From Pelomyxa schiedti (Eukaryota; Protista; Evosea): 53,934 nt of DNA. Below are positions 12,271 to 53,934 of this stretch, one piece after another. Position 1 is the first letter of the stretch. Each line of letters starts with the position of its first letter. The position numbers and the translations under genes are program-made. The DNA lies in assembly GCA_020536535.1 (NCBI GenBank), contig JAHLWZ010000810.1, forward strand, positions 73,122 through 127,055, in the 5' to 3' direction. The notes beneath the pieces were generated by a model. That model made no database searches, had not been told where the DNA came from, and worked only from the letters and a program-made list of their open reading frames with translations.

Positions 12271-15200
12271 TTAGAAGAATGACCTCACTTTTCGCTTCTT
12301 CCACATTTGTTTTTGCCTGCTCTCCTTGTTGGTCTCACATTGCTGCTGCTCAAGTTCATGCATGATTTTCCGCTTGCTCTCCTCACGCTCCTGCTTCTCG
12401 CGGATTGCATCCTTCCGCTTCAGTTCGGCGATGAACAGGGAGTCGCGGTGGAGCTCCTTGTTTGTGAGCTTGAGCTCCTTTCGCTTCTTTTCCTTGAGCT
12501 TCTTTAGCTGTATGGTCTGGGCCTCGGGGTTCCCGGTGGTGTCTGTGTAGAGTGATATCTTGTCCCTCAGAGTAAGATCCTGTAGTTTTGGCGTGTGCAT
12601 GGGGAGCGGTGCAGGGTTTCTTCTGGGAAGCGTGGAAAATCCGAGCTGAATGCGGGACTTTTCACGTTCTTCTTCCACTTCGTAGTGGGCAACGATGTGC
12701 AAGAAGTTGTTGATTTTGTCTCTCGTCGATGTTGGTAGAATGTACTTTTTAACTTGCTCTGATCCGGTTCCTTCTGCACAGTCATCTTGCGTAACAAGCT
12801 TTGCAAGTAACTGCCGGTGTGTGTGGAAAACCCCACCACCACAATGGTAAAGAGGCGGGAGTAAGGCATTTGTAGGCAACACGGGATTTGAAGTATCTAG
12901 GGTGTACTGTTTCTCAAATAATAGCAGAAGATCAAGGCACATATCCAAGCATTGAAGAGTAAAAGTGTTGCTTGCTAAGGGCATTTCCGTTGATGTTACT
13001 GGTAGCTGGAACTTGGTGGGTGTTGGTGGGGGGGCTTTACAAATCCCAAATGTCAGGAGCCCTGGCGAAGTATCAATCAGGGAAGGCATATCAGAAATCT
13101 GTTTCACTGCTTGAGGTCTAATATGGTCCTTGTCATATGTAATTCTTTTCCCCTTGTTCCTTCTAATTACTTCTGACGAACTGGGCTCGTCAGTTTCACT
13201 ATCACTGAAGTTTGTGTTTAGAAGTGTCACTGAGGAATCAGGACTGTCAGGGATCTCAGCCTCCTCAACGTTTTTGCGTTTCTTTCCTGCAAGCACCTCT
13301 GGTTCTTCAGAGGTTTGGCCGGAAGGTAGACCTTCACACAACAAATGCAAAATACATGCCAAGAAGTTCAGTACCTCGGGGACAAACTTGTGAGACTGTT
13401 TTATGTAATGCAGCAGTGTTGTACAAGCGAGAAATCCGGAAATAATTCCTCCTGTATTACGTATTGGACACATGCAAAGACTTTGGGATAATATCAGCAT
13501 TGCGGGGGTACAAATACTGTGTCTCATGTCAGTGCACGAGAACATGTCTGAAAATAATTTCAGTAGTAGGAAGTCTCTCACTGTGGGCCAGTGTAATTTG
13601 CTTACTACGCCAAAAATTCGTTTTAAGTGGTCATGTGCATAGGCAGGTGCCCCAGCAGGGCGAAGGGGTGGAAGAGGAGTTTGCGGCTGTTCTTCCCCCC
13701 TTTGTTGTCTGTTTCTCAGCTCTATCTTGTTTCTCCTGTCTGCTTCTTCAAAAGCTTCCTTGTTTTTCTGTGCAAGTTCGTGGGAAGTTGAGGTATAGGG
13801 CTCCAGCTCTTTGGAAAGAAATAGGAGAACGCGGGTAAGTGAGTTGAGTTCTTCCATGGTTCCAGAGACATAGAACCTCTCCAGTAAAACGGAGAAGAAT
13901 ACTGCAATTTCAGATGTGTTTTGCGGCTTTAACGTTGGGTGATGCCCGATAAATATTCTTCTGGCCACTAATTCGTGTTGATCAGTTGGAAGTGATTTGA
14001 TTATGTCTGCGTATTCCTCAAGGTTCTTGGGAACCGTGTCGAAATTGAAAGGAAGTTGCAAACTCCTAATATCCAAATCAGTCAGTACTCGCCTCCTTGT
14101 CTGAGTGTCATCTTCAGGTTTTTTTGATGTCTTGTTCTCATCGAACTTTTCAGAAACAAGAACATCCAAAGCAGTGCCCCATGCCCCTGCGTTAAATTTG
14201 TCCTTCTTTGACGGATTGGTATTGTCGTTCAGAATGCGCTCCGCCTCAGCAAGTTCGGTCCATCTGGCTTCATCCATTCCCTCACTTTTCATTCGTTCTA
14301 ATCTCTGCTGCTCTAACTTTCTAAGTTGTTCTTGTTGCATTTTGGCGATTTCCACTGGTGATTTTACTTTGTCAGCAGCTGGTGCTGTAGATTCAAACGT
14401 GAGCTCTCGAACAAGTTGGTCATACTCAGCGTCCTTATTAACACTTGGTGTCGTCTGTGTTGTTGCAGTGGTAGTTGCACCTGTGGATGTTGTTGATGGA
14501 GTTGGAGTTGCTGGGGTTGGGTCTGGCTCATTTGGAGTGTCACTTTTTTTTCTACGTGCAAGTAGGTCAGAAAACCCTTGGAGCTGGGAAAATTCGTCAT
14601 CCAGTTGTGCAGTTAGTTGAGCTCTCTGTTCTCTATCTTTAGCACGTTCTGCACGAGCTAACTTTGACTTGGCAATAATTTCATCATATACGTCCCTGGA
14701 GAGGCACTGTTGGATGAAATTGTTTGAATAGCTTATTGAATGCACATTTATCAATAAATTTCTATGCTCTTACTTGGCAGATTTGCGCTTGTCATCTTCA
14801 TCACCACCACCAAAATGCGCTTTACTAACCAAATCAGCACTCAAGTCATTATCTTCCTCTTCAGCCTGTGATTTTTTCCTAAGACCCCGAAAAATAAACA
14901 AGAAGCAAACCTGCACTTCAGGCAGAGCATTATAATCAAGAGGCTTGCCACCATGTGTGAATGAGATATCTCCAACATCCTCATCCCCATCAGTGAGGTT
15001 GTAACGGGCCGCTCGAACTTGGGCTTTGGAGGGTGCAAAACGCTCCTGATGCCATCGCAAAAGACGTTCGGTCTCGGTAGGTTCCATCTAACCAATCAAG
15101 GTGAGAAGGTGAAAGAGCTTCACTACTATAAAGTAAGTCATGAAAGCTCAATCAATCATTACCAAATACAGATAACACCCCACAAAAGAAAAAACAGAAA

Positions 15201-15807
15201 ATATTGGCCGTACCACAGCAGGACCCAGTGAGGTACCACCCAGAATTGGGTTTTTTGCCCTGATTTTCTTCCTCATGTCCACAAACACATTCGACTTGCC
15301 GGTAGCCGCGGACACATACTCAGGCAGCAGTTTACTCCTCCTCTCCTCGAACCCCTTGGTCTGCCCCTTCACCCTCCCCTGCTTTGATTTCCCCCCCGCT
15401 CCCTTGGGCCCCTTCTCGCCCCTCGCGGCGCCCCCCGCCTCCTTGTTGGCCGCGGCGCCCCCCGCTGCGGGCGCGGAGCCCTTTTTCGCGGCCCCAGGGC
15501 GCTCCCGCGTGTAGCCGCTGCTGAGGCGCTCGCCCACGACGCGCTTGCTGCCCATGGCCTTGGCGACTCCCCCGCCCTTGGGGCCTCGCGCGCCGCTGCC
15601 CAGGCCCCCTCGCGCCGGCCCGTCGTGCTCCTGCGTGACCTGCTGGGAGAGCGCGGCGACCTCCTCGTCCAGGCGGTGCATACGGCCGCCGAGGTCCGAC
15701 TTCGGCTTGGGCTTCGCCGCCCCTGCTCGCCGCGACGCGTCGTGGACGGACTTGGCGGCGCCCTTTATCTTGTGCTTGCCCCCTTTGTGCGCCTTGTGCT
15801 GCGGCAT
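12271..15807 (-). CDS. NOP14: Nucleolar protein 14 (NOP14/Nop14 family; SSU processome, 18S rRNA maturation), multi-exon.
   Basis: An 827-aa terminal exon plus upstream exons reproduce Nop14 landmarks. These are KSNVFVDMR (compare KSNVFRDKRFGE), YNLTDGDED..FTHGGKPL (compare YNLNEDEELTHYGQSL), LSADLVSKAHFGGGDEDD (compare LSAELTAAHFGGGG), DAEYDQLVRELTFE (compare DAYDMMVRELGFE) and a basic C-terminus KKLKEKKRKELKL...KRKVRSFF. The N-terminal exon MPQHKAHKGGKHKIKGAAK lies in a GC-rich island, and the start ATG is the reverse complement at 15805-15807. Confidence 0.85.
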
Positions 15808-16373
15808 TAGAGTGTAATTTCCAATGAGCAACTGCAAACAGCCCAATAAACTGATTTTCCGGTAAAATAAGCTTGCCTCAGACAGACATCGCGGCACGCA
15901 ACTGTCAGGCAGTCCACTTCCTGCCCTTGTTCTCTGCCATGGGCCTTGTTTCCTTTTTAGTCTAAAAAAAACACATCGAAGAGCAGATGATGTCATGAAA
16001 AAGGCTGGAAGTAACATTCCTGAAGGTAAAAGTGCTATTGTGTGCTGTGCATTTGCACACAGTATTACTTGTGTTAAGAGTCTTGGAAGACTCCTAACAC
16101 AAGCTATGCAAATACACAGCACCACACAATAACCACCTTGACCTTAAGGATGTAACTTCAGCCTCTTGGATGACATTCAGTCCTCCTTGGTTTCTGACAC
16201 ACGCTGTCCCTACTTTGTTTTTTCTTTTATAATTTTTTTATATCTTTCTAACCACCCTGCACGGCTCCCACCACACATGCAAAAAAATCAGAAAACCCTT
16301 GGACAATTAGTCATCATTCTAACCTCGACTTGGAAATTTGTGATCGTCACCAACCTAAAAGTTTGGTGGCGGT
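15808..16373. promoter_or_regulatory. Divergent intergenic region between NOP14 (-) and the 16374 gene (+). It is a putative bidirectional promoter and contains a 94-bp imperfect palindrome.
   Basis: A head-to-head gene arrangement leaves about 560 bp of non-coding sequence. The inverted repeat lies at 16037..16130. Confidence 0.3.
16037..16130. repeat. Imperfect inverted repeat (hairpin-capable palindrome) with arms of about 42-46 nt and a 6-nt spacer.
   Basis: The left arm is attgtgtgctgtgcatttgcacacagtattacttgtgttaagagtc. The spacer is ttggaa. The right arm is gactcctaacacaagctatgcaaatacacagcaccacacaat. The inner 15 bp pair with 1 mismatch, and the outer 20 bp pair with gaps. Confidence 0.7.
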
Positions 16374-20276: not shown

Positions 20277-22792
20277 TTAATAACCAGGCAAATGATGGAT
20301 GGAGGAAGACTCACCAAATACACCACAGTCAGACCCGTTTGTTTGCAGAGGGATAGTGTCAGGCTGGTAGAAGGGCCAACCAGAAACATCAACGTCCACG
20401 TGCCTTGCCTTGGCTTCTGCTTCCAATAGATTCCTCAATAACTGTGGGAGTGTCGGTGCAGTAATTATGAGCATTAAAGTGCCCTCACTTGTAAGCAACG
20501 ATCATTTGGTGAATGGAAAGAGTCGTAGTATTCAAATCGCTTGTCTCTGATGTTGATCACGGCTAGGCACCAGTGGTTGCCAGCTTATAGTTGTGTTGGT
20601 AAAACTGTTATAGTTGACACATTGTGGAGAATACATTGATGAATAGGAAATAGAAGCATGTCCATATTAAAGATGTCTACTTTGCTTGACCATTTCTTGA
20701 CTCTGTCATAACTCCTTGACAGCAGGGGGTAAAAGAAGGTGTTGAAAAAGTGGCAGTGCGGGAGGTCTTTAGACTTCCGTGACCGCTCCTGTAAAATTTC
20801 CATATACAAGTTGATCACTTCATCATTCAGCCAAGCACCAGGTTTCAGTGTTAGTATGTCGGCCTGAGTAAGACGCTCAGAAAACGCCTTAATATCTGCA
20901 GTTTTATCCTCATCGCGTTTTGATCCCAGGGCAATGGTAACAAGGCGTTGTTCTGATGTCGTAAGTGGGCGGGTTGATTGAGATCTTTTTGTGTTAGAAA
21001 TGTGATTAATGAGTGAACTCTCACTTCAATTTTTTTATTCTCTCTTCCTCTTGTCTTTGCTGTTCCAAAACCCGCACCTTCAACTGTAATTTCCCCACCC
21101 GTGTTATTCATGATTTTAATTATGGCATTGGAAACCATGTTCATGACTACTTGTTCCCTGCGTTGGACAGCTTCTTCTTGAGAAATTTCTAGCTGTTTCA
21201 AACGGCGGTTCAAGTCATTCATTCTGATAGAAGTGAAAATTTGCGTCGAGTGAAGTGCAGGGTACCTTTCATCCATGAATTCAGCCTTCCAGGAGTAGGA
21301 AGGGGGTAAAGTGGTGGATGCTCGTGGCAATGAAAAAGCTATCTTTACATCGGAAGTTTCTGGAATGGCAATAGACGTTTTGAGAGGAGTTGGTGGCTGG
21401 GTATCTGAGTCGCTGTCACTAATCACTATAACTTCACTTTCCTAGCACCATGTTAATGAACCTACGTGGACATTATATATACTGGTAAGGGTTTTTTCTT
21501 TTCAGGACTGAGGGTTCTTTCAATTTCTTCCTCGAGTATCATGCCTACGATTAGTGAGACAAGCCGACACAAAGGAAAGGAGAATTACTTCGTGCCGTGA
21601 TAGTGGAGTGCCTCAGAGGGGTAAATCTATTTGAATCAGACTACGTATGTTAACACTTGAAACAGTAAAGTGTCACTACCAGTGTGCCCAAAAAATGATT
21701 TGGCGAGGAGACCTCATCTCCTTCCACTGAGCTAGCTGTACTAGAAAGCAGTCTTGGAGGTTCGTGCCTGCGTTGTGCTGGTGTTGATGGCGGGGTGTTT
21801 CTTAAGTAATTGGGGGCACCGATTCTCTCAGAATCAACTTCAGTGAATGACATTGTCGCATAGGTATCCCCTAAAGACGTGGAATGTGAAGAAACTGTTG
21901 ATGCAACGTTTCCATTTGAAAGCGGTTGGTAGTGCAGTGATCGAGGGTCAACTGGAGCGTGGTTCTGAGGAGGAAAGGAATCATCATGGGGAAAGCAATA
22001 GTCTACGGAACGGCTAAAAAGAAGACATTACCCAGGAGAAAGAGAATGATACTTACAAGTTGTGGCTGTTTTCTATGCCATTCGGTACGATAATACTTGC
22101 AGCCTCTTGGCTGAGGGAAAGTGAGCGCTGGGTTCCTTCGTCAGTACTGTGATGGCGAGTTCGGAGGGGTGTTGAAGTTTGATAGTGGTTTCGGTTGGAA
22201 GGTGTAGTAGTAATTGAGGATTGGGTCACAGATGGTTTAGTTTTAGTGACCGTTTTTGTGGGAGTTGTGGTGACAAATGCTGTAGAAGTAGCAGACGACG
22301 TCGTGGTGTGTGACACTTGGTCCGAGAAAAGTACTGTAACGGGTTTCGATGGTGAAGCCCAGCTCATCAAATTGCCTGAATAAAAGAATAGCTCCGTTAG
22401 TGCTATTATAATGTGTCATAGTAGTACGTACTGAAGAACTTGAGAGGTGATGTTATTGGTGCAAAGGCCTTCAAAACACTGCTACTTGCTTTTGCCCAAG
22501 ACGGAGAACTGACACGAGGAGGCTCCGAAACAGCGCGTTTAGCACGTTTTGGTGCCGGCGAAGTCGGCAAAGTGAGTGCCGAAGAGACTGTGGGTATGAC
22601 TTCTTCTGCAGAGTCAACGGGTTCTTCGAGATCACCAAATGGATGCGATATAGCCGCTCGGTTGCGTTTCCTCCCCAATGCCGATGGTGCCCGGTTCACG
22701 AACATCAGCACTCTTTTTTTTTCTTTTTTGGATCTGGACAAGAAAGAAAAGCCGTGCAGATCTGGCGGGCAATTAACTGCGACAGACGCCAA
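20277..22792 (-). CDS. Ulp1/SENP-family SUMO-specific cysteine protease (peptidase C48), multi-exon.
   Basis: The catalytic-domain exons read ...MINLYMEILQERSRKSKDLPHCHFFNTFFYPLL...VDIFNMDMLLFPIHQ (the His box; compare WLNDEVINFY...FNTFFY...VDIF...PIH) and LQTNGSDCGVFGES (the catalytic Cys box QxNgxDCGvF). The N-terminal exons are long and Ser/Thr-rich. Confidence 0.8.
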
Positions 22793-30765: not shown

Positions 30766-32546
30766 GTGGCGAATAGCCCCGCTGGCGCCAGAATCACTGT
30801 AAAACCCGGCACATATGATGAAAAGCGGGATGTACATATCGACAAACCGTTGAACATCACTGGCACAGATGGCGCCACCATAAATGGGAACATTGTAATT
30901 AACCTTAGCTCTGATGTGGGAAAAACAGAAAGGTGTGCCAGAATTTTCTCGTATTCATGGGAAAATACTAACTTAAAAACAGAGTAGTTATAGAAACTTT
31001 GGCTCTGACCTGTAGCCGTAGTATACCAGCCGTCCACATCACTTCTGGACAAGCTATGCTTGTTTCATGTACAATATCAGGTAAGGCGTTGTGTACACGC
31101 CAAGAACCTCACACTCCTAAGGTGGGAAAGATGGACTCGCAGTCCAGGGCAGAAACGGATTTCCCGTACTGCATGCTTGCTCCATCGTTTCCGCAGAGCG
31201 TGCTAGTGTCGTTTTCAGTGATCATGCACAAGGTCAGTTGCATCATTGCATTCTATCCGGTTCCGCTACTGTAACTCTGCTCCTTTACTGGTATAATTAT
31301 TGATACCCAACCTCAGGGCATCATCATTGAAAGTGAATCTGAGCCCCTTTTTTTCAACTGTAGTATCACACACTGCGGTACTGGAATGCATGCTCGTGAA
31401 AGTGCCAAGGGTTACTTCACCAACTGTACATTTGAACACAATAACAAGCCAGGGGTACTTGTGACCACAAGGGCAAATCCAGTTCTAGACCATTGTAGCA
31501 TAGGGGCTGGTGAGAGCAATGGCATCTTCGTGCGCGACGAAGGCATGGGAATATTTACCGTATGTGAGATTTGGGGCAATGCTCTCCCAGGAGTGGCAAC
31601 GTGCACAGGAGGTGACCCGATTGTCAGTGGATGCATTGTACGGGATGGCAGAAACGCTGGAATTTTGGTATATGATAGTGGAAGGGGTGTTGTCAATGGC
31701 TGCATGGTCAGACAGAACATTATGCCTGGTGTTGAAGTGCGAGCAGGAGGCAATCCCGTAATTAATTCCTGCTCAATTTTTAAAGGAGACAGCAATGGCG
31801 TCTATGTTCACAATAGGGGATGCGGACTCTTCAATTCCTGCAGCATATACGAGAATGTATTACCTGGGGTCGCAGTGCGCACAAGTGGCATGCCTATACT
31901 TGTGGGCAGCAAATTAACCACTGGCAAAGACAACGCTGTGTTGATCTGCGATCGTGGCCGCGGGGCCTTTATTCAATGTGAATTGATTGGATATAGCACA
32001 CGACCTATGGAAGTCAGGGACGGGTGCACACCATTTTTACATGAATGTGTCACCCATGATGGCAAACATGCCACAGTTTTACAATGGCTGGAGCAAATTC
32101 CTCTCCATTCCATGACTGACCCGGACCCATTTCAGCCATACACCGGAAGCAGTTTTATCCCAACACCTTCCAATTTGGGGCTCAGTGGTGGTGATACCAT
32201 ACTCAGCAGCAAAGTGGAGATAGGAGTTGGCCCAGCACCGTGGGCAGCAAGTGACAGTGGTGGCGTGGGGCCTAATGGAGCTACAGTGAGCACTGGAGTT
32301 GGATTACCTCCTGGAAGCAACTGTAATATTGTGGAACTAAATGTAGATGCCTCTGCAACAACTAAACAAGCAACACCACATCAGCCCACACCAGAAAGTC
32401 ACCCTACAGACACTCAAGATGAACCTTCTCCAGAGCACCCAACCACCACGGAGGCTCCACTCTGCCTCACAACCACCAAACAACCGGCTGAACGGCGTTC
32501 GTCCATTGCCTCCCTCTCCGAAGAATTTGAAAACCAAGGTATATAA
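30766..32546 (+). CDS. Right-handed parallel beta-helix (PbH1/CASH) repeat protein, FBXO11-like. C-terminal Pro/Thr-rich tail.
   Basis: There are about 9 tandem 22-23-aa repeats of the form NxGIxVxxxGxGxxxxCxIxxNxxPGVxVxxxGNPxIxxCxI. Examples are NGIFVRDEGMGIFTVCEIWGNALPGVATCTGGDPIVSGCIV, RNAGILVYDSGRGVVNGCMVRQNIMPGVEVRAGGNPVINSCSI and NGVYVHNRGCGLFNSCSIYENVLPGVAVRTSGMPILVGSKL. The 5' exon reads ITVKPGTYDEKRDVHIDKPLNITGTDGATINGNIVI. Confidence 0.7.
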
Positions 32547-32979: not shown

Positions 32980-37330
<4,351 letters not shown>

Positions 37331-41699: not shown

Positions 41700-44326
41700 A
41701 GGAACTGGTGGATGGAAAACACACATCGTCAACTATTTCCCACAGAATGGGAGCCAAATGACGAGTCGAGGTATACTTGAGTCCACGTCGCAGGCGAATT
41801 TTAAGTGTGGTAAAGCCTGGTCTGGCATCAAGAAGCGAAAAGGATGCAGATAGACTGTGGGGTGTTGTGGTATTTGTGTTAATCCTTGTTGGAGTGTGAG
41901 GAGTGGCGCCAGAGAGAAGTGCTAAAACGCGAGAAAGGTATTCCGCTGGTTTGCCCTAAAACTGAAGTTGGAATATGCCCACAGGGGGACAATTTACCGT
42001 GTTGATAAGGAGAGATGCTTGGTCGAGAAATAGGGTGGACATATGGTCAGTGGGTGACACTAATTTTTTCATTGCACGCTCTGTCTGGAGGTCAATGAGA
42101 CGTTCCTCATTTGGTACAGATATTCTCGTAAACTTGATTCCTAATGCCTTTTAGCTCCTAGCATCATTTTACAAGTTAAAAACCAGCTTCTTTTTCTATA
42201 TTCCTCATAGATGGGATATCTTCGTGATAAAAAAGAACAATAGAAGTTCCTTAAGCGATTTTTAGAATAATGAAAAAACCATGATTTGGAACCTTCGGCA
42301 CCAGCACGACCCGTTCTTCCTGCCCTATGAATATACTGAACTGTGGATCTGTAGATAAAAGACAAAGTTAATGCTCACACAAAAAGAAAGAAGCAAACAA
42401 AGGAGGGGCAGCCATTATAATGAGATCAACTGTGGGGATGTCGAGCCCCCTGCCAGCAAGCTCAGTTGCAACCAAAACAGAAAATTCGCCCTAGATTCAA
42501 GTTAAATTTTTACTTCACAAACACGGAAGGCTACATACTTTTCTAAATCCTTGCAGTCTCTCATCACGCTTTGTTTGACTCAATTCCGCGTGGAGTACCC
42601 GTGAAACTATTAGTATGAGTAATGAGTCGAAGTTAGAGGTATGTGTACTTTTGCCAAGAGCAGAAGCATAACTTTTCGCGGATTCAACCGAGTTACAAAA
42701 CAAGAGAGTTTGTGATTTCCCATAGAACTATACATATTTTAGCTTGACAAGGAGGAGGGAAAAGAGAAACCTTCAATAAGCGTTGAATAACTTGAACTCG
42801 AAACTGCTCTTCACAAAACAGGGAGAGGTGTGTTACAGTAACAGGAAGTTTGACTTCTTGTGTTTCAACAAGGTTCACTGTTAGAAGGGCTAAGAACAAA
42901 GTGGGATATAGGGAAAAAAAGACCAACAACAAAATCAGGTGAAAGGAACTGTTGGGCCACATTCTGTGCCCACTGCCCGAATGTGGCAGAGAACAAGAGA
43001 GTTTGATGGGGTATATCTCTGTGACAAAGTATAAGGCAAAACTAGAAAAAAGGGAGGGAGAAAACTTGAGCTGAGAAAGAAGTAGCTCTATTTCATATGC
43101 ATGGATGGGTTCCAGGATTTTATCTGCTTCATCAAGTTGTCTAGTTAAGATACATTTCACCTTTAAAAAGGAGAACGAGGCAACTGAATGACCAAAAGGA
43201 TATGAATAACGAATTTGACGCGATCATATCTGAGCACTTCCAACTCTGCCAGTTCAATGATACGTCCGGGTGTGCCAACCACGATGTCAACCCCAAGACA
43301 GAGGAATTTATCTGAATGGATTAAAAACAAGGAGAGGAAGTGTTGTCGCACATTGGAGGTCGCTTGGAACTCCTCCAAAAACAGGGCATGTCAAAAGCTT
43401 GCCAAGTGAGCACTTCTCGAATTCTTCCGTTGTTTGTTCAGCAAGCTCCCGTGTTGGTTCAAGACATATCACTAGAGGGGTGCTGGATTTTTTTCGTTGC
43501 CAACCAGCACCTCCAGCTTTGGCGCTACTACTTCCACTTCCGCCACTGAGACCAGTGGTAGTCGTACTAGGAGATTCAGTAGGAACCAGTTTAGAGAAAT
43601 CGATGCCGGATGCACTAAAGTCCAGCTCTTCTCCAACAAAGTCCTCTGGTGGAAGAGAGTGATCTTCCTGTTCCACTTCGTTACTGTCTTCGTTACATGT
43701 CTCACTGCCTGGGAGGCTCTCTTCCAAAACCTCTGGGGGATTTTCGAATATAGTATGCAGTACAGGTAAAATAAAAGCAAGAGTCTTTCCACTTCCAGTT
43801 TTGGATTGGCCAACCACGTCTTTCCCAGCAAGCACATAAGAGAACAATGCTTCCTTGTGCCCGTTAGAATAAAGTAACAAGAACCAACCCACCATCATAC
43901 TTGTATAGGAAAAGGGTCGTTAATTCCCCTGGCAGCTAACATATTCACCAAGTCAGGCAGCAGGCCCAACTTGCTGAATCCGTTGTCCACACATTGCACC
44001 GCGGCGCCATTTGCGATTTTTCGACCGCGCTTTTGTTTCCGTCTTTCTGGCTTGGCACTCGGGCGTTCAGAACGTGGGGGGGGCCGCTCCGCGGCGGCGT
44101 CTCTTTGGCCCCTTCGACCACTGCTGGCGCTCTCGTCTGCGGTTGTGCCCTCGACGTACTCCTCTGGATCGGCAACGAAATCTTCGTGCTTCGCCACTGT
44201 TGCGAGGCCCTCGTCGTTAAAAACGATGTGTTTCGATCTGCCACTACTGGCAGTGCTGCTCGTCGTATTGGGCAATACAGAGGTCTCCCCCCTCGGTCTC
44301 TTTCTCACCGGTTCCAAGCCTTCCAT
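41700..44326 (-). CDS. DEAD-box ATP-dependent RNA helicase. It has a low-complexity insertion after motif I and a GUCT-like C-terminal extension. Multi-exon.
   Basis: Minus-strand exons give the Q-motif region [27 protein letters not shown]. Motif I is [18 protein letters not shown], then Ia is [16 protein letters not shown]. The exon [14 protein letters not shown]...VKFV is followed by [10 protein letters not shown] (motif II). The helicase C domain reads [17 protein letters not shown]...[19 protein letters not shown]. Motif VI reads [19 protein letters not shown]. The hand-read C-terminus reads ...[21 protein letters not shown]... and [35 protein letters not shown]. Confidence 0.85.
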
Positions 44327-44574
44327 GTGGTGCTACTACGTGTACCTTTGTTGAATATTGTGCCCTCGTTTTTGATGACACTTCTCCAGCAGTTCGGAGC
44401 CCTTCCTCCATACTGGTCGGTCATGACACCGTAGTGCCCCAGCTGGCGGCATCAGGTTCCGAGACCAGCTGGGAGAAGAAAGACCTGACCCTGTCGATGC
44501 TTTTGATTTGTCTTGTTTGCCCGTTGGAATGGAAGAGACATCAAGAAGTTACGGAGAATAAGGCGTAAGAAAGG
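44327..44574. promoter_or_regulatory. Short (about 250 bp) divergent intergenic region between the helicase (-) and the 44575 gene (+). It sits inside one GC-rich island (about 43950-45100).
   Basis: Both genes point outward and both 5' exons are GC-rich. Confidence 0.3.
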
Positions 44575-46347
44575 ATGTGTAGCACTTTACAGACGTGCGA
44601 ACTGCGTAGGCTGTTCTGTTACACCTGCGGCTCCGCACATGATATTGCGGCTGTCAGTGTGTACTACAAGTGCGAGGGCCACGGTGCCTCCCACGCACCA
44701 GTCACGCCGCCCGTGCACGAGAACCCCCCGAGCCTGGTTTCATTGTGCGAGCCTCTTCACCGTCCGTGCACGTGCGGGTGCCCCAGTGCCTCGTTGTTCT
44801 TTCGATGCCCCACAGGCCACAACCAGCGGCTCTCCGCCGGCGCCATGCGGTTCCATGTGGTCCTTGCCCCAAGTTCCGCGGACAGTGCGAGCGGAGCGCA
44901 TCATCCTTCGCCGCCCATGCCACACGCTCCCACAGCGCCCGCAACAGCACCCGCAACCGCGCCCCCCACTGAGCTGTCTCCTTCTTCAAGTTCTACACCA
45001 ACCCCAACAAACTCTGCGGCGAACAAGGCAGCACCGCCGGGCGTCGCAGAGCTGCTGTCACCGCTTTTCTGCCAGGACACAGAGTGCGAAGGAGGACTTC
45101 CCACGGGGGCGTCATACTGCCCGAGGTTCCCAATGAGGCTCGAGGTCGTGCCGTTCGACCGCGTCCCGCCTTGTGTGCCCAGTATCAGACTGCTCAATGG
45201 GCAGGCAATTATTGGGCACCCTGATTTCAATGCGATGAAGTTCAGGCTCGTGAACATAACAGAAGTGCAGGATGGGAACATAGAAAAATACGAAGGGAAC
45301 CTGAACCTTGCATTATACAGGAAGTGTCGTGACTCTTTCGTGCAAACCAACATCAGCTATTGTGCGTTTTGTCCCCTCTCCCTGTTTTTTTTTTACAGTG
45401 CCGGGACTCACCATTCCGCAGTGACATCTACCGAATTCAGAAGACAACCTCCGTCGAATTTGCACGTTGAAAACAGGGGGCACCAACTTCGTGCGTGTGA
45501 AATAGACACCGTGGAAGCACTTCCCTCAATGCTTCTTGCTGAACAGTTGTGGCAACGTCTGACCGGGGGTGATACCACTTCTATGGTTGCGACACTCGCA
45601 GTATTGTCTTCCTGTTTTCGACGTGCCCCAGTGCGAGAATGGCTTTCCATTGATGCATGCTCCAGTAAAGTTCCCTTTAAGTGCCTGGCCATCTCTTACA
45701 ACAAACCCAGTTTTCCACAATGGCACCGTCACAAAACAGGAGTTCCTCCAGTTGTGTTCATTTTGGTTGTCAGAAGAAAGTCCCCCAGTTTTTTCCTTTG
45801 ATCCGGTGAGTATCTCCACCCAGCAATCTTTCAATGTTCTCACTCTGGACAGGCATTGGTTGGTTATTGGAAGTCGCACAGGTGTCTCCCTTTCGCACAC
45901 CGTCTTTCTTTTTAACTTGCTTCCAGTTGGATATGTGGATTCTTTGAGGAGAACAATTACGAGACACTCTTCTCGGCGTTTCCAAACTGCGCCATACTTC
46001 ATTTCAGTGGCAGCTTTGCCGGGAGATATGTCCTTAAGTGCTCACCAACACAAGAAGGAGTCTCCATATTTCGCAAAGAACGTGACAGCCCGTTCATGGT
46101 GGCAGTGCACAAAGGAACACCCACACACGTCAAGCTGCACAGCACCCCAATCACAAGTGCATCATCAGCTGAACTGTCACCAGTGACGCTGTCGGGGTGG
46201 TACGTGCCTGTGCCAGTTGGAACTCTGCCCACGTTCTTCCCAACACTCCAAGCAGTGATTGAGAGCATCATCCCTTCGTGTTATGGCTGGATCACTCGTG
46301 AAATGCTCCAGGCTTATATGTGCAATAAGCAACACCTGGGAGAATAA
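44575..46347 (+). CDS. Hypothetical Cys/His-rich (zinc-finger-like N-terminus) protein, multi-exon.
   Basis: The 408-aa ORF starts MCSTLQTCELRRLFCYTCGSAHDIAAVSVYYKCEGHGASH...CTCGCPSASLFFRCPTGH and carries a Pro/Ala/Thr-rich linker. Downstream exons read KQEFLQLCSFWLSEESPPVFSFDPVSISTQQSFNVLTLDRHWLVIGSRTGVS and LSGWYVPVPVGTLPTFFPTLQAVIESIIPSCYGWITREMLQAYMCNKQHLGE*. Confidence 0.45.
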
Positions 46348-46441
46348 AAACCCCCAGACCTTCAGTCCCAACGATGAAGGAAAACGATAGGTTCTTATGA
46401 TTCCTTTTTTCGGTCTTTGTTGAAATCGGCGCCGGGGAGTA

Positions 46442-49400
46442 ATGCCATCAGCAGCAAAGGGGCCTGTAATAGACGGCACCAAGTGGTGCTGGTGCCTGAG
46501 GGGCAGAGTTGTTTCGTTCTTGATCTTTTCCCTTGCGTTGCACTGTGCCGCCATCTACTACTTCACGTCGGGGTTTCTGCTGTCGCGGGTCCAATTGACC
46601 GAAACCAGCAATTGCTCCGATTGGCGGAGTGCCATTGGCGGTCACTCAAGTTCAGGGAACTCTTTTCGCGCCGCCGGGAACGATGCTGTGTGTGGGCAAC
46701 AGCCTGTTGTCGACAAAGTCGTAATCCTTTTGGTGGACGCACTTAGGTTAGATTTAACCGATTCTCATTCCCACCCTCATTCTCAATTTCGACTTTTTCT
46801 GAGCACCTTTTAAGATATGACTTTGTTGCCCCTTGGCCTTCTAAGTCCTCTGGTTCTTGCAACAATTTTTTTAAGTGAGGCATGAGAATTTGTACTTTGT
46901 AACTCACTGAGCTCTTTTGCAGTTGCTCTCCACTTGGAGATATTCCCTACTCCAAGAACTTTCACAACCAAATGATGAATATCCAGCAGATCCTGCTGCA
47001 AAAACACAATAGTTTCTTGTTTCCCTTCATTGCTGATCCTCCAACTTCCACAATGCAACGATTGAAAGCCCTAACGACAGGTAGGAGCAAGAAGCTATTT
47101 GTCATGTTAATTTACCGAAGGTGGAATTCCAACTTTTTTTGATGTAAGCAAAAATTTTATGTCATCTGAAATTTCTGAAGACAACGTTGTTCATCAGCTC
47201 ACCAGGGTACCATTTTGACACTCTTGAGTTAGTTTGAAACTTAATTTTTCTTCCCCAGAATAAGAAAAGAATTACATTCACTGGGGATGACACATGGTTG
47301 GGATTGTATCCCAACAGCTTCAATGCCAGCTTTCCGTTCCCATCATTTGATGTCAAGGTAAAAAAGTTAGTGGCAGAGAATAAAAAAGCTAAGCTGCATT
47401 TAGGATTTACATACCGTAGACAATGGTGTCATGAAACACTTTTCTGCACAAATGAAGCAAACCGACTCCTGGGATGTATTGATCGGGCACATGCTTGGAG
47501 TTGACCACATTGGCCACAGATATGGCCCAAACCATCCCGAGATGACGAAAAAACTCGCTTCCATTGATAATGTATGAGTATTTTTCTTGTTGCACGAAGT
47601 TGCTCTAAGATATCATTGAAGTTTATCCGGGAGACAATTGATAACCTGCCTCCTAATTGTGCCTTCATCGCTTTTGGAGACCATGGTATGACTCAAGATG
47701 GCAATCATGGTGGCGGCAGTGAGGAAGAGGTACGATTCTTCCTGAGAGGCCAATAAATTCTCTTCTTAGTGGGCTTTGTGCCATCTGGCAGGTCTCTTCA
47801 GCTCTGTTTGTAGTAATGCCACAAGGCTTGAGATTACAGTCCAACACTGATATTTTGCCCAGCCAAAGATATATCAAGCAAGTGGATTTGGTTCCCACCC
47901 TATCATTTTTACTTGGAGTCCCCATTCCGTATGCCCCTTTCTGAACATTTTTACTACATCAACTCTGTTTAAGGTATGGAAACATTGGCTCAGTAATCCC
48001 TGAGCTATTTCCAAGTGAAATGTTACCCAAGATACTTACAATGAACTCATGGCAAGTAAACAGATACATTCACCAATATGTCAAACACACAAATATTGGA
48101 GAGGTTGGCTCACTCTCTGAGAGAGAAAAAACCAAAGACCCTGCTGTTTGAATTTCATTGACACACACCACCAGGAATCTTTGACCAATGCCAACGAAAA
48201 GTACAGTGAGATTTCAGACAAGACACTGGTTTCGATGCACTCTTTTTTCTTCCATTATAACACGGTTTATCTTTTGGGGTGTATACTTTTAGGAAGTACA
48301 CCTGGACACACACCTACATTACATGAACCAAGTCTTTGAACTGTGTTCACAACTGTGGTCCACATTCAATTACTCACAAGTTGCTTGGGGAATTGCTATA
48401 AGTATACTAACCTCACTTTGTGCTGGTTTGTTCTTGTTGTTACCACCGTATGCTTGGTCCACACCTTTCCTTTTTTAAAATATCACTAAATCTAAATTTT
48501 ACCCTTCCCTCACAAGAGCACCGTTCCCATACCTACATACTGGTCTCGGACTGGTGTTCAGTTTTATCCTTCTATTACTTATCAAACTACAAGGGTCAAC
48601 TATGCCATCCCCCATACAGCTTCCAATTTGTGCAACTGGTTGCCCCTCTAATTATTTGACGTTAAGTAATAAGTACAAACGAACAGTTGCTGTCTCTGCC
48701 CAATTTGGATTTCTTTACTCTACCCTTTTCCGCCTCCACCCATCTGTTTTCAGGACTCTCAGTTACTCCTCCATTGCCTCTATTACTCTTGTAGTGTTGC
48801 AAGTTATCACTTCTTTCTCGAACAGTTACATTGAAGCTGAACCCCAAATAGTCCGTTTCCTTATTACAACGGGAGTGGTATGTGCACTTTATCACATAAA
48901 CTAGGCACTGAACAAAAACGAAGGCAGGAGCTTTTGTGTATAGCTTCATCAGGCTTGTGGAGAAACATCAAGGAGTTTTGCTAGTTTGGCTGCTTATGAT
49001 GGTTTTTACGCGAGCTGTACCATGTCTGGGTCAGTTTTCCCTTGAATCTCATCAAGAGAACATGGTGATTCCTGCATCCATGCTCACACTTTTATGTTTT
49101 GCACCGTTGTGCGCCCTCTATTTTCTGGCATACAAAGTATGTACTCTCATTGTTTCAACACAAATTTCATTTCAATTTAGGCATTGAAAGCAGCCCGTGG
49201 TGTTGAATGGGGATTTATGGCCCGTGTTGTCCTATGCCTTATTTATTTCGCGGCACTTTCTCTGCTTCTATACTGGTGCACTGTTGTATTCAGCAACGTA
49301 ATTCCTGCAGTTGCGCTTCCGGCTTTCATGGGTGGTTCTCTAAGTGTAGCCCTTGCACGATTTGCAATGATAGCTTGTTGCGTGTCTCTTCTCTGCGTCT

Positions 49401-50279
49401 TCATGTTCCCGCCGTTACCCATTTTTGTGGAAATAATTTTCGAGCAAGGTGCTGTCTCAAACCTGCAATTTGGTGCTACCAAAGCTGGTTGCCTGCTATT
49501 CTGCACCCCAGTGTTTCTATGCTGTGCAACTGCACTTGGACCTTCATCGCCACTGTGTATACTTGCCATGGTGCTGCAAATTTGTGCATTTGTCTGGTTG
49601 CTGGACAAGTCAAACAGCTTGAAACTGGGAGGAAAATCCATTTGTGCATCTGGATTTGGAGGAGTCATGTTTGCCCTGTTTGCCCTGCAGCATTATGCAG
49701 CCACAGGGCATGGGTATGAGTTGAGTTCAATTCACTTTGATGCTGCATTTGTGTTGTTCAATGATGCCAATATAATAGTGGGAGGTGCGATTGTTGTACT
49801 GAACACATTTGCTGCCCCCATTCTAACTGCAATTGCTCTTCCTGTTGCAGTTGCTTTCATCAGTGACCAACCATTCAATCCCGTGAGTTATTTTTGTTTG
49901 CTCCCCCTTTCCCCCTCCACCCCGCACTCACCTCCCGTAATTTATAATCAACTGACACCACTCCCCAAAAAACAAAACGCAGTTCTCGTTCGAACACAAG
50001 CTCGCGCCGACGGTCACGGCCTTCAGTGCCTTTTTCAGCCTGTGGCTGAGCACATCGATGCTGGCGGCGTGGGTGTGCCGCAGACACTTGATGGTGTGGA
50101 GGCTGTTTTGCCCGCGCTACTTGTTTGTGGCCGTAATGGTGCTGGTTGTGGACGTTGCTCTGCTGGCGGCTGTCATGTTTGTTGTCAGAGTTACTGGCCG
50201 GTGTGCTGCCAGATACCATTATGGGCCAAAGACTATTGCTAGGATCCAAGCTGGTGGCAACTATTCAACTGAATAGAGT
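46442..50279 (+). CDS. GPI ethanolamine-phosphate transferase (PIG-O/PIG-G/PIG-N family). It has an alkaline-phosphatase-like lumenal domain and a C-terminal multi-pass membrane domain. Many exons.
   Basis: The N-terminal exon reads ...LIFSLALHCAAIYYFTSGFLLSRVQL...VVDKVVILLVDALRLDL (compare GFLLTR...VVLVIDALRFDF). The catalytic-domain exons read DSWDVLIGHMLGVDHIGHRYGPNHPEMTKKLASIDN and IRETIDNLPPNCAFIAFGDHGMTQDGNHGGGSEEE (compare GDHGM...G.HGG). Hydrophobic exons from 48150 to 50279 include a 352-aa ORF with 8 or more predicted helices. The terminal exon follows the acceptor aaacgcag| at about 49981 and ends ...RIQAGGNYSTE*. Confidence 0.8.
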
Positions 50280-50990: not shown

Positions 50991-51191
50991 AAAACAATCT
51001 GAGAACGGAAATTCACCTGAATCTAAAAAATACCATAATACCGAAAACCAAAGCAGAAAAAAAACAACAAAAATAATTCTAGAGATGGCAGCCAACGTAA
51101 TGGTTCGCTCGCCCTTTCTTACTTGGTCTTTTTTTCCCACAAGTCTCACGTTGTCTTTTTTTTGTGGTTTTTTTCCTTCCTTTTCTAGCCC

Positions 51192-53408
51192 ATGCAACAA
51201 TTGTTATCAGGGCCACCTGAAATCCCACGCGAGGACATAATTTTCAACCTCGATAATGACAGAATTGGTGGAGGTGCCTACGGTGATGTGTATAGGGCAA
51301 TTGTAAAAGGAATCAAAGTGGCCATCAAAGTGCCAAAAAAACAACAATGGGAAACTGAGGCAGAACTCCAGGCTTTTAAAGACGAAGTCGCCATTCTCAA
51401 GTACTTTTTCCATTACATGCAAATACCTCAGAAGAATAACGTACTTAGGGGAATATTCCACACCAATGTTGTACTTTTCTTAGGTGACTAACGCCCAATT
51501 CAATGTTGCCTTTGACACTTCACAGGAGCTTGCACTGCTCCAGGAAACGTCATTATCGTTTTAGAGCGCATGATGTGTGATGTGGACAGGCTGATTCACA
51601 AGCCCTTGGACACTGTTCCTCCTGAACTGCAAAACTTCCTTAAGGGTGGATTTAGTTTGTATAGAAAGCTTAAAATTGCTTATGAAACTGTACTTTTCTC
51701 CTTGCCTTTTATATCTTCCATAACTATATAAAACAAGGTTTTGGGAGTAAGCTGGCTTCACGATATCTGCAACATTGTCCACCGAGACTTGAAGCCCGCC
51801 AATTTACTAGTAAGCGCAAAACAATGGGGTGGGCAAGTTAACATTCATCTCAGTTGGATGACAACTTTCACGTGAAAGTCACTGATTTTGGTTTTTCTGA
51901 AATATATAGGGCTGATAAACGACAATGCGAGATGAAAGGAACAGGTTTGCACACTCACCAAAAACCTTTTTGTTTTTTCACCTGTTGCGTAGCTTTGTAC
52001 ATTGCCCCTGAAATTTGGAAGCTTGAAGTCTGCTCGAAAGCTTCTGATGTGTATTTCCTCACAGCCTTTTTATTTTATTTTTTTTTAGAAAAAAAAAATA
52101 TCTCCTTATCACTTATTTAGGTATTCTTTTGGTCTCATTCTTTGGGAGCTTCTCACTGAGGAAGATCCATTTGCTGCGTATAATGACATAGAACCGTTTT
52201 ATCAAGTAAAGTTTGAACATTTAAATGTTTTTTTCCTAATATGAACAGGATGTCATTGTACGTGGGCTGAGGCCTATCATTCCTGCGCAAATTCCATTTA
52301 GAAGAAGAACACCAGAGTCTACCTCTGTCACAACTAGGATACCACTTCCTACCTCACTTGTATGCTTGATATCATTTTTCTAAGTCTTGTTCAACACGTT
52401 GCAGGCACTTCTAATGCAAGAATGCTGGAATACTGACCCAAAAGCTCGTCCTACAATGCCACAGTTACAAGTGAAAATTGAGAATATTATTCTTGAAATT
52501 CTTGTAGAGTCACCAGCTGCCAGAACTTTCTGGTCAACCTATCTGCGAGGAGTGCGTGTTCACTTTTTGCCATGTTTTACTGTAACTCAATAGCCACAAG
52601 GAAGGTGGCAGTTTTAAGGAAGTTGTTACATGGGATGAGTTTATGAATGCTCTTTCATATGCCTCTGCTATACCTGCAGAGAATTTGAAACCTTTGCAAT
52701 CTCTCTTTTGCCGTATGTTCTGAATGCATCTCGATGGCGACGTGTAACTGTTCACAGCTGGTGACCCGGCTGAAAATAATCCTGGAAGCTTGGTCAGTTT
52801 GTCGCGGTTTGATCTTATGGAAAAATGGTTTGGGGACTTCTTCCTTCCAGAAGGGAAGCCCATTCTGTTTGAGGTATCCTTGTTGATTAATCGATTTTGG
52901 CTCAAATTCTTTTCCCATGATCAACAAAGATGCTCGAGCTACAGCAACAACCGTAAGTTCATCACTTGAGCCAGTTCTACTAAACTTATTTCCAAATCTG
53001 TTCAGGTGGTTTATGCAAGATGTAAGCAAGGAATACGCTGACTTGTGGCTTGGTGGACGTGACGACGGGTATTTCCTTGTGCGGCTCAGCAACAGCAATC
53101 CCCAAACATCACCTTTCACGATCTCGAAACGAAAAAGTCACCAGAATGTACATCGCCGGTAAGAATTCATTCTGCCTTGGCATAGCCACTAACCGTACAT
53201 CCCAGAATCCAACGATTAACCAGTGATACAACGAAAATAGCCCGATATTCCATAGAGACTGGTGCCGGGCCTGGATACCTCCAAGCCAACACTGTAAGTA
53301 ACCTGGTGGAGAGGCTCCGTGAAATCCGAAGCCTTACAACACCCTGCCCTCGCGAGATATTTGCCAGTGCCTATGTTGGTGTCCGTGTCACTCCTGGGCA
53401 AAGCTGGT
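51192..53408 (+). CDS. Protein kinase (TKL-like catalytic domain) fused to a C-terminal SH2 domain. The architecture matches the SHK-type SH2 domain kinases described in Dictyostelium. About 12 exons.
   Basis: Kinase subdomains can be read across the splice joins: IGGGAYGDVYRAIVKGIKVAIKV (GxGxxG and VAIK), HTNVVLFLGACTAPGNVIIVLERM, HRDLKPANLL (the HRDLKxxN catalytic loop), VKVTDFGFS (DFG), LYIAPEIW (APE), SDVYSFGLILWELLT and ALLMQECWNTDPKARP. After a linker (PAENNPGSLVSLSRFDLMEKWFGDFF...), the SH2 domain reads WFMQDVSKEYADLWLGGRDDGYFLVRLSNSNPQTSPFTISKRKSHQNVHR | RDTTKIARYSIETGAGPGYLQANTVSNLVERLREI, with the FLVR motif and an invariant Arg. Confidence 0.85.
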
Positions 53409-53934
53409 AATCATCATGCCTGATACAAACCCCTTTTCAACCCAAACACTCTGTGGTGTAAATCACAAAGAGAATAATAAGAAAAGACAAATTTGTTTTC
53501 ATGGTTTTTCTCCCCTTGTTTCTTTACGACGTTCAAACGGCGGAGCACACGTTTGGAGATAAACAGCGTCTTGAGTGGCAAGATGATTTCGGGAGACTGG
53601 TGAACATTTTTTTTGACATCTTTGAAACATTGGTCAAGTCACCAAGAAAACTTTGAGAAGTGTGACGCACTGCCAGTCCTGAAAGTTCTTTGTATGTAGC
53701 TTTTCTGTTGAGTGGTAGTTTCCAGTTTCATTCGTGCTATCCGTTCAGACACAGTGAATGGGAAGAACTCTATTATTTCTTTTCAAAGATTCTATTGTAA
53801 AAAAGTATGCAATGTCACCCCTCGTAACTACCGCACACATTTAGCCTGGTATTTATGTCCCGATTCTTTTTCCATATTTAACACTTTAAGCTTTTCTCAG
53901 TATCCATTTGTTTTAGAACCTGTTCTGAAAAGCG

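What the first reader, a model, noticed from the sequence alone, without database searches (positions are those of the whole stretch)
51192..53408. TKL-type kinase with C-terminal SH2 domain (SHK-like architecture)
A complete kinase catalytic domain (GxGxxG, VAIK, HRDLKPANL, DFG, APE) is followed in the same gene by an SH2 domain with the diagnostic FLVR motif (WFMQDVSKEYADLWLGGRDDGYFLVRLS). Kinase followed by SH2 at the C-terminus is the arrangement of the Dictyostelium SHK family, a phosphotyrosine-signalling module with a restricted phylogenetic distribution. It is the most informative lineage marker in the window. It also implies that a pTyr-SH2 signalling system operates in this organism.
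Basis: partly seen in the sequence, partly recalled or inferred. Interest (0 to 1): 0.65.

Follow-up and report, generated by a model that had tools for sequence, protein, structure and literature searches.

The report
Pelomyxa SHK-family SH2 kinase gene

Summary
Window 51085..53410 (+) is a 15-exon gene with 14 GT..AG introns of 42-86 nt. Its spliced product is identical to GenBank KAH3757053.1, 'dual specificity protein kinase [Pelomyxa schiedti]', 533 aa. Pfam finds a kinase domain (1.9e-48) and a C-terminal SH2 (28 bits, cut-off 21).

The kinase is TKL-type. Its closest solved relatives are CTR1 and Raf, the catalytic loop is HRDLKPAN, and all catalytic residues are intact. The SH2 phosphotyrosine-pocket residues are invariant or nearly so in 40 relatives.

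Every relative that carries an organism name is amoebozoan. They include the Dictyostelium SH2-kinases (about 40% identity over 95% of the length). The window gene sits in an archamoebal subclade with a Pelomyxa paralogue, Mastigella and Mastigamoeba.

Two refinements:
- A C-terminal tail tyrosine is conserved in 95 of 97 relatives.

Biochemical activity, ligands, and the phosphatases and other SH2 proteins of this organism were not testable. Low interest: a known family and an annotated gene.

The parts
51085..53410 (+). Whole coding region of the SHK-family kinase gene (15 exons, 533 aa, stop TAA 53408..53410). Exons: 51085-51102, 51189-51400, 51449-51483, 51526-51689, 51738-51809, 51854-51944, 51993-52050, 52121-52205, 52249-52359, 52405-52551, 52601-52712, 52758-52873, 52930-52952, 53006-53158, 53206-53410.
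   Evidence: The spliced translation is identical to P0001 / KAH3757053.1. All introns are GT..AG. Exon GC is 0.448 and intron GC about 0.36.
51085..51102 (+). Optional 6-codon first exon (MAANVM) of the deposited model.
   Evidence: Intron 51103..51188 runs GTTCGC..TTCTAG.
51258..52467 (+). Protein kinase catalytic domain (residues 30-303, spread over exons 2-10). Lys53 is at 51327..51329 and the HRD Asp160 at 51786..51788. All catalytic residues are intact.
   Evidence: Pfam Pkinase 1.9e-48. CTR1/Raf are the closest solved relatives. Catalytic positions are invariant in a 40-sequence alignment.
52504..52947 (+). EF-hand-like domain homologous to Cbl_N2 (residues 316-413, exons 10-13). It was previously read as a linker.
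53007..53344 (+). SH2 domain (residues 416-512, exons 14-15). The FLVR arginine Arg441 is at 53082..53084.
   Evidence: Pfam SH2 scores 28 bits against a cut-off of 21. The family profile hits SHP2/p85/PLCg SH2 domains at 1e-15 to 1e-10. The AF2 model has aA, bB-bD, bE, bF and aB. Pocket residues are conserved.
53372..53374 (+). Codon of Tyr522, the conserved tyrosine in the disordered C-terminal tail.
   Evidence: 95 of 97 relatives have a Tyr 4-19 residues after the conserved Cys513 (mode +9 to +11), usually within 7 residues of the C-terminus. Tail pLDDT is below 50.

Best explanation
This is an intron-rich nuclear gene of the anaerobic amoeba Pelomyxa schiedti (Archamoebae, Amoebozoa). It encodes a cytoplasmic SHK-family kinase: a short N-terminus, a catalytically competent TKL (Raf/CTR1-like) kinase domain, a Cbl-type EF-hand-like domain, a Src-type SH2 domain, and a short disordered tail with a conserved tyrosine.

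Shown here: the gene structure, the domain identities, the intact catalytic and pTyr-pocket residues, family membership, and the amoebozoan distribution.

Inferred from Dictyostelium Shk1, the only studied member: the SH2 domain binds a tyrosine-phosphorylated partner, probably at the plasma membrane or cortex. This recruits or positions a kinase that can phosphorylate Ser/Thr and probably Tyr.

Further inferences: the EF-hand-like domain acts as a rigid, non-calcium-binding scaffold packed against the SH2, as in the Cbl TKB domain. The tail tyrosine, if phosphorylated, could engage an SH2 domain in trans (STAT-like) or in cis (Src-like) to regulate the enzyme.
For: Gene model and identity to KAH3757053.1. 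Pfam kinase and SH2. TKL affinity. Catalytic residues G33/G35, K53, E72, H158/D160/N165, D178, E204, D216 and R297 are invariant in 40 relatives. SH2 pocket across 40 relatives: aA2 is Lys or Arg in 33, bB5 Arg in 40, bB7 Ser in 40, bD4 His in 39, bD6 Arg in 40. EF-like domain homology to Cbl. The full-length AF2 model has pLDDT 89.1 and pTM 0.87, which suggests a fixed arrangement of kinase, EF and SH2. In the NJ tree P0001+P0002 has 96% support, adding Mastigella gives 100%, adding Mastigamoeba gives 72%, and the all-archamoebal clade has 92%. Shk1 is dual-specific and needs its SH2 for plasma-membrane localisation (PMC1420674). Dictyostelium TKLs make pTyr sites that SH2 domains read (PMC4196871). 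Tail tyrosine conservation.
Against: By sequence alone the catalytic loop is Ser/Thr-type, so tyrosine phosphorylation is only an analogy. aA2 is Lys rather than Arg in this protein. The SH2 Pfam score of this single sequence is modest (28 bits). The EF loop lacks calcium ligands: the position aligned with Cbl's loop Glu is Arg385, so nothing about calcium regulation can be claimed. Tyrosine phosphatases and other SH2 proteins of P. schiedti were not surveyed.
Confidence: 0.9

Rival explanations
1. Gene-model artefact: a kinase gene and a separate downstream SH2 gene have been wrongly joined.
For: Intron 9 has several possible frame-preserving junctions. The public gene-position index holds no gene with exactly this product.
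Against: There is a single uninterrupted frame across 14 short canonical introns. No intergenic space is available: the gaps are 42-86 nt. The inter-domain exons encode a conserved folded domain. The same order occurs in complete de novo transcripts of Mastigella, Ceratiomyxa, Clastostelium and Copromyxa. In all 150 listed relatives the EF-SH2 module ends at or within about 50 residues of the protein's C-terminus. The deposited model was built with RNA-seq support (PMC8887013).
Confidence: 0.02
2. It is a conventional TK-group cytoplasmic tyrosine kinase (Fer/Fes- or Src-like), as an orthology label used for expanded archamoebal families suggests.
For: [quoted passage not shown] PK_Tyr_Ser-Thr scores 9e-43. 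BTK, HCK and CSK appear among the structural neighbours.
Against: The catalytic loop is HRDLKPAN, not HRDLAARN or HRDLRAAN. The P+1 segment is GTALYIAPE, not the TK-type PxxWxAPE. The best sequence and structure hits are CTR1/Raf. The SH2 is C-terminal and preceded by an EF-hand domain, unlike any solved SH2 tyrosine kinase: no PDB chain aligns beyond the kinase domain.
Confidence: 0.04
3. The SH2 domain is a structural relic that no longer reads phosphotyrosine. It would bind pSer/pThr or unphosphorylated ligands, or only stabilise the kinase.
For: The single-sequence Pfam score is modest. aA2 is Lys, not Arg. The high pTM suggests tight packing on the kinase.
Against: bB5 Arg, bB7 Ser and bD6 Arg are invariant, and bD4 His is present in 39 of 40 relatives across the Amoebozoa. 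These are exactly the pTyr-coordinating positions. The Dictyostelium Shk1 SH2 is functionally required for membrane localisation.
Confidence: 0.08
4. It is a non-functional recent duplicate (a pseudogene in the making) within an expanded family.
For: At least 8 paralogues exist in P. schiedti. Compared with most relatives this copy has two insertions: DTVPPELQNFL, and about 18 residues after PAQIP.
Against: There are no stops or frameshifts and all catalytic and pocket residues are intact. It is 64% identical to its sister paralogue, so the two are clearly diverged yet both remain intact. The insertions fall in loops.
Confidence: 0.03

Closest known systems
Dictyostelium discoideum Shk1-5 (ShkA-E), SH2-domain TKL dual-specificity kinases
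   Same: The order is the same: TKL kinase, then a conserved inter-domain region, then a C-terminal SH2 and a short tail. Identity is 39-41% over about 95% of the length. The conserved motifs are shared (GPPEIP lead-in, WFG.FF, FLVRLS, H.R, CP...Y tail).
   Different: The archamoebal proteins have a very short N-terminus, whereas the dictyostelid relatives examined have longer N-terminal extensions (the longest is Gln/Asn-rich). This copy has two extra loop insertions in the kinase domain. It belongs to an archamoebal subclade, not to a one-to-one orthologue group with a dictyostelid Shk. No functional data exist for it.
Cbl tyrosine-kinase-binding (TKB) domain (four-helix bundle + EF-hand + SH2)
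   Same: The EF-hand-like domain directly precedes and packs on the SH2. There is sequence-level homology of the EF part, and Cbl is the best structural match over 147-200 positions.
   Different: There is no four-helix bundle, no RING and no linker helix; a kinase domain sits upstream instead. Cbl's calcium-binding loop is not conserved (Cbl loop Glu aligns with Arg385). The SHK SH2 has bE/bF strands and looks like a full Src-type SH2.
Metazoan cytoplasmic SH2 tyrosine kinases (Src, Csk, Fes/Fer, Btk, Syk)
   Same: A kinase and a pTyr-reading SH2 share one polypeptide. A regulatory tail tyrosine is possible.
   Different: In those enzymes the SH2 is N-terminal to a TK-group kinase. Here it is C-terminal to a TKL kinase. 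Solved chains align only through the kinase domain.
Raf / plant CTR1 (TKL group, Raf-like MAP3Ks)
   Different: Raf and CTR1 have N-terminal regulatory regions and no SH2 or EF-hand module.
STAT linker-SH2 unit
   Different: It is much more distant than Cbl. There are no DNA-binding or coiled-coil domains. The SHK SH2 is not STAT-type.

Membership tests
SHK family (Dictyostelium Shk1-5 type SH2-kinases) | TKL-group kinase domain with intact catalytic residues | tested here: met
   CTR1/Raf are the best hits. All catalytic residues are present and invariant in the family alignment.
SHK family (Dictyostelium Shk1-5 type SH2-kinases) | SH2 domain C-terminal to the kinase in the same polypeptide | tested here: met
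   One open frame across 14 introns. SH2 scores 28 bits against a cut-off of 21 at residues 416-474 of the 533-aa protein (409-467 of the 526-aa model scanned). Transcripts of related species show the same order.
SHK family (Dictyostelium Shk1-5 type SH2-kinases) | Full-length homology to the Dictyostelium SH2-kinases | tested here: met
   P0019 and P0023 (D. purpureum, D. discoideum) are 40% identical over 95% of the length, with E 1.5e-108 and 1.5e-106. P0023 carries kinase + SH2. D. discoideum has only five such kinases. Sequences under the names ShkA-E were not available, so orthology to a particular Shk is not resolved.
SHK family (Dictyostelium Shk1-5 type SH2-kinases) | Phosphotyrosine-competent SH2 pocket (FLVR Arg bB5, bD4 His, bD6 basic) | tested here: met
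   R441, S443, H464 and R466 are present. These positions are conserved in 39-40 of 40 relatives.
SHK family (Dictyostelium Shk1-5 type SH2-kinases) | Dual (Ser/Thr and Tyr) specificity and SH2-dependent membrane localisation | not testable with these tools
   Known only for Dictyostelium Shk1, as cited in PMC1420674. It needs biochemistry and cell biology.
TK group (conventional protein-tyrosine kinases) | HRDLAARN/HRDLRAAN catalytic loop and PxxWxAPE P+1 loop | tested here: not met
   The sequence reads HRDLKPANLL and KGTALYIAPE.
Cbl family (TKB domain E3 ligases) | EF-hand-like domain (Cbl_N2) immediately N-terminal to the SH2 | tested here: met
   [not shown]
Cbl family (TKB domain E3 ligases) | N-terminal four-helix bundle, linker helix and RING finger | tested here: not met
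   Pfam finds only kinase and SH2. A kinase domain occupies the upstream position. It is therefore not a Cbl; only the EF-SH2 cassette is shared.
Cbl family (TKB domain E3 ligases) | Calcium-coordinating EF loop | tested here: not met
   The Cbl loop Glu aligns with Arg385. The loop is variable in length and composition across relatives. This is a sequence inference only.
STAT-type SH2 domains | SH2 lacking bE/bF strands, with an extra aB' helix | tested here: not met
   The AF2 model shows strands at 165-168 and 175-178 (bE, bF) and then a single aB helix. Src-type SH2 domains are the best SH2-only matches.

The most novel reading that the evidence does not exclude
The EF-hand-like + SH2 pair of SHK kinases is a mobile 'supradomain' homologous to the EF-SH2 part of the Cbl TKB domain. 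If so, a composite EF-SH2 phosphotyrosine reader predates the split of Amoebozoa and Opisthokonta and was attached independently to a TKL kinase (SHK) and to a RING ligase (Cbl). In addition, the nearly universal C-terminal tail tyrosine would be a phospho-switch that engages the SH2 domain, as in Src or STAT. I found neither point stated in the papers I could search, but the key Shk and SH2-evolution papers were not held, so both may already be known.
Probability: 0.3. Interest if true: 0.45.

Novelty: already known. Interest (0 to 1): 0.2.

Why it matters
The finding matters little as a discovery. The exact protein is in GenBank with a fitting name, its paralogues are deposited as SHK1, and the SHK architecture has been known in Amoebozoa since the Dictyostelium work.

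It is useful in three ways. It is a clean taxonomic marker: it identifies the window as amoebozoan, and by exact match as Pelomyxa schiedti. It documents that anaerobic Archamoebae keep an expanded set of SH2-kinases with an intact phosphotyrosine pocket. It also gives two modest, testable leads on how the family is built and regulated: the Cbl-like EF-SH2 cassette and the conserved tail tyrosine.

Tried and rejected
- The look-up of encoding contigs for P0001 found no record, so paralogue loci and intron-position conservation could not be compared.
- The afdb50 fold library was unavailable, so I could not match the model to AlphaFold models of named ShkA-E.
- My by-eye reading of the upstream + strand gene (about 46.4-50.2 kb) as a GPI ethanolamine-phosphate transferase was not confirmed by Pfam, either on single exons or on a hand-joined pseudo-protein. 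It is left unassigned.
- The antisense ORFs inside the gene (52537..53137, minus strand) have no Pfam match and are treated as chance.
- The key papers (Moniakis 2001; Liu 2011; Liu and Nash 2012) are not held. Searches for Shk together with Cbl or EF-hand returned nothing specific.
- I considered calcium regulation through the EF-hand and rejected it, because the loop ligands are absent.
- I considered a search for PTP, STAT or Cbl proteins in P. schiedti and dropped it: the protein search has no taxon filter and lists only the best 120 hits.

Full report
**What is in the sequence**

The region is a eukaryotic split gene. They are joined by 13 introns of 42-70 nt into one 526-codon frame.

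Only intron 9 allowed several frame-preserving junctions. Donor 52551 with acceptor 52601 is supported by the motif GEGGS[FL]KEV, shared with the closest paralogue, and by the deposited model.

A protein search found a 100% identical entry of 533 aa: KAH3757053.1, 'dual specificity protein kinase [Pelomyxa schiedti]'. It differs from my model only by a 6-codon first exon. A 15-exon model (51085-51102 plus the 14 exons, with the second exon starting at 51189) reproduces it residue for residue.

Exons are GC-richer than introns (0.448 against about 0.36). The genome paper reports 7.43 introns per gene, 98.4% of them GT-AG, with models built by Augustus, PASA and EVM using RNA-seq (PMC8887013).

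**Domain content**

Pfam gives Pkinase 1.9e-48, PK_Tyr_Ser-Thr 9e-43 and SH2 28.0 bits (curated cut-off 21).

**The SH2 domain**

A profile of the C-terminal module from 29 relatives hits solved SH2 domains (SHP2, p85, PLC-gamma, Csk, SOCS6, Syk) at 1.5e-15 to 1e-8. All 29 members pass Pfam SH2 at E<0.01.

The AlphaFold model of residues 316-533 is confident (pLDDT 91.2, pTM 0.86). It shows aA, bB, bC, bD, bE, bF and aB, which is a Src-type SH2 rather than a STAT-type one.

The phosphotyrosine-coordinating positions are conserved across 40 relatives spanning the Amoebozoa:
- aA2 is Lys in 19 and Arg in 14 (Lys in this protein).
- bB5 is Arg in 40 of 40.
- bB7 is Ser in 40 of 40.
- bD4 is His in 39 of 40.
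- bD6 is Arg in 40 of 40.

This is the strongest indirect evidence that the domain still reads phosphotyrosine.

**The 'linker' is a domain**

Residues 316-413 fold into a pair of helix-loop-helix units with the short paired strands typical of EF-hand pairs, followed by a connecting helix. Four observations tie it to Cbl:
- Pfam's Cbl_N2 (the Cbl EF-hand-like domain) passes its cut-off in the D. purpureum and Cavenderia relatives (26.9 and 27.3 bits against 22). It also hits 6 of 29 family members at E<0.01.
- A profile built from the linker alone and searched against all PDB sequences at E<=10 returned 32 hits. Every one was Cbl or Cbl-b (best E 0.015), aligned from the start of Cbl's EF-hand domain.
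- Foldseek also ranks Cbl-c, Cbl-b and c-Cbl first.

The glutamate that closes Cbl's calcium loop aligns with Arg385, and the loop varies in length and composition across the family. I therefore infer a structural EF-hand that does not bind calcium.

No solved structure aligns with the full-length model beyond the kinase domain. The kinase-EF-SH2 arrangement has no experimental structure.

**Relatives and distribution**

At E<=1e-10, 829 of the 8000 scored candidate proteins matched. Every hit that carries an organism name is amoebozoan. The named organisms are:
- Archamoebae: P. schiedti (at least 8 paralogues, several deposited as 'SHK1 protein'), Pelomyxa sp. JSP, Mastigella eilhardi, Mastigamoeba balamuthi and Entamoeba marina.
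- Dictyostelids from seven genera (Dictyostelium, Cavenderia, Acytostelium, Heterostelium, Polysphondylium, Synstelium).
- Other Amoebozoa: Ceratiomyxa, Clastostelium, Physarum, Copromyxa, Arcella and Trichosphaerium.

The D. discoideum and D. purpureum proteins are 40% identical over 95% of the length. D. discoideum has exactly five SH2-kinases, Shk1-5, all in the TKL group (PMC1420674), so the D. discoideum hit must be one of them.

A neighbour-joining tree of 35 named sequences with 200 bootstraps gives these groupings:
- The window protein pairs with paralogue P0002 (96%).
- That pair joins a complete Mastigella transcript (100%).
- Mastigamoeba joins next (72%).
- All of these lie inside a wholly archamoebal clade of ten sequences (92%).

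The gene therefore belongs to an archamoebal expansion of the family and is not a one-to-one orthologue of a particular Dictyostelium Shk.

A profile search of 1.84 billion representative proteins found 98 representatives at E<=1e-30. In all 150 listed proteins the module ends at or within about 50 residues of the C-terminus.

**Mechanism**

Shown: the architecture, the intact catalytic machinery, the intact pTyr pocket, and a confident compact model.

Inferred from Dictyostelium: Shk1 is dual-specific and needs its SH2 domain to reach the plasma membrane. Dictyostelium TKLs create pTyr sites that SH2 domains bind (PMC4196871). The most likely mode of action is therefore SH2-directed recruitment of a TKL kinase to tyrosine-phosphorylated partners, with the EF-hand domain buttressing the SH2 as it does in Cbl.

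A further lead is the tail tyrosine. Of 97 relatives, 95 have a tyrosine 4-19 residues after the conserved Cys513 (mode +9 to +11), and the chain usually ends within 7 residues of it. Here this is Tyr522, in a tail of low model confidence. That position suggests a phospho-regulatory site of the Src or STAT kind. This is a hypothesis only.

**Rivals**

- A fused gene model is very unlikely. The frame is continuous, the introns are tiny, the inter-domain exons encode a conserved domain, and de novo transcripts of other species show the same order.
- A TK-group kinase is contradicted by the catalytic motifs and by the nearest neighbours. The 'Fer family' label in the Mastigamoeba paper is an orthology-database name.
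- A degenerate SH2 is contradicted by the invariance of the pocket residues.
- A decaying duplicate is contradicted by the intact residues.

The lineage-marker claim holds for named sequences. Tyrosine phosphatases, STAT and Cbl of P. schiedti could not be surveyed with these tools. The P. schiedti and Mastigamoeba genome papers do not mention SH2 domains, and neither discusses this kinase family.

**Verdict**

The gene is an already deposited member of a known family. The Cbl-like EF-SH2 cassette and the conserved tail tyrosine are modest additions and may or may not already be in the literature I could not access.

Noticed in passing
window 52504..52947 (+), exons 10-13: The stretch between kinase and SH2 is not a linker. 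It is an EF-hand-like domain homologous to the Cbl TKB EF-hand (Pfam Cbl_N2), apparently without calcium ligands.
   Followed up: yes
window 53372..53374 (+), Tyr522: A tyrosine in the disordered C-terminal tail is conserved in 95 of 97 family members, often as NPY, and usually lies within 7 residues of the C-terminus. It is a candidate phospho-regulatory site.
   Followed up: partly
proteins P0173, P0183, P0186, P0219, P0228, P0237 (environmental relatives, not in the window): Elsewhere the kinase-EF-SH2 core carries extra N-terminal domains: LRR, BspA-type LRR, or five PLAT domains. In some proteins the SH2 is duplicated. In P0219 a Cbl_N2+SH2 cassette sits N-terminal to the kinase as well as C-terminal, which suggests that the EF-SH2 pair moves as a unit.
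   Followed up: partly
[not shown]
   Followed up: no
window 51210..51227 (+), GPPEIP: A nearly invariant GPPEIP motif lies just before kinase strand b1 in the whole family. By eye it looks like the TKL/TK 'WEI..e.l' lead-in. Its role is unknown.
   Followed up: no
window 42144..44332 (-): A DEAD-box RNA helicase gene lies on the minus strand upstream (Pfam DEAD 4.5e-15 for 43311..43919; the HRAGRTGR motif is at 42144..42374).
   Followed up: partly
window 46378..50239 (+): The multi-exon + strand gene immediately upstream of the kinase has motifs that looked to me like a GPI ethanolamine-phosphate transferase (VVILLVDALRLD, FGDHGMTQDGNHGG, VDLVPTLSFLLGVPIPY) and a long hydrophobic C-terminal part. 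Pfam did not confirm this.
   Followed up: partly
window 44000..46000: A GC-rich block (0.59 GC at 44001..45000, against about 0.40-0.45 nearby) has long ORFs on both strands, including a 410-aa ORF at 44569..45798 (+) with no Pfam match. A second GC-rich block lies at 15001..16000.
   Followed up: no
window 458..685 (+), 2622..2945 (+), 20588..21025 (-), 31275..32543 (+), 35057..35992 (-): Other genes recognisable from single long exons: WD40 repeat protein, Ras-family small GTPase, Ulp1/SUMO protease (Peptidase_C48), a right-handed beta-helix repeat protein (Beta_helix 2.2e-33) and a ubiquitin-specific protease (UCH).
   Followed up: partly
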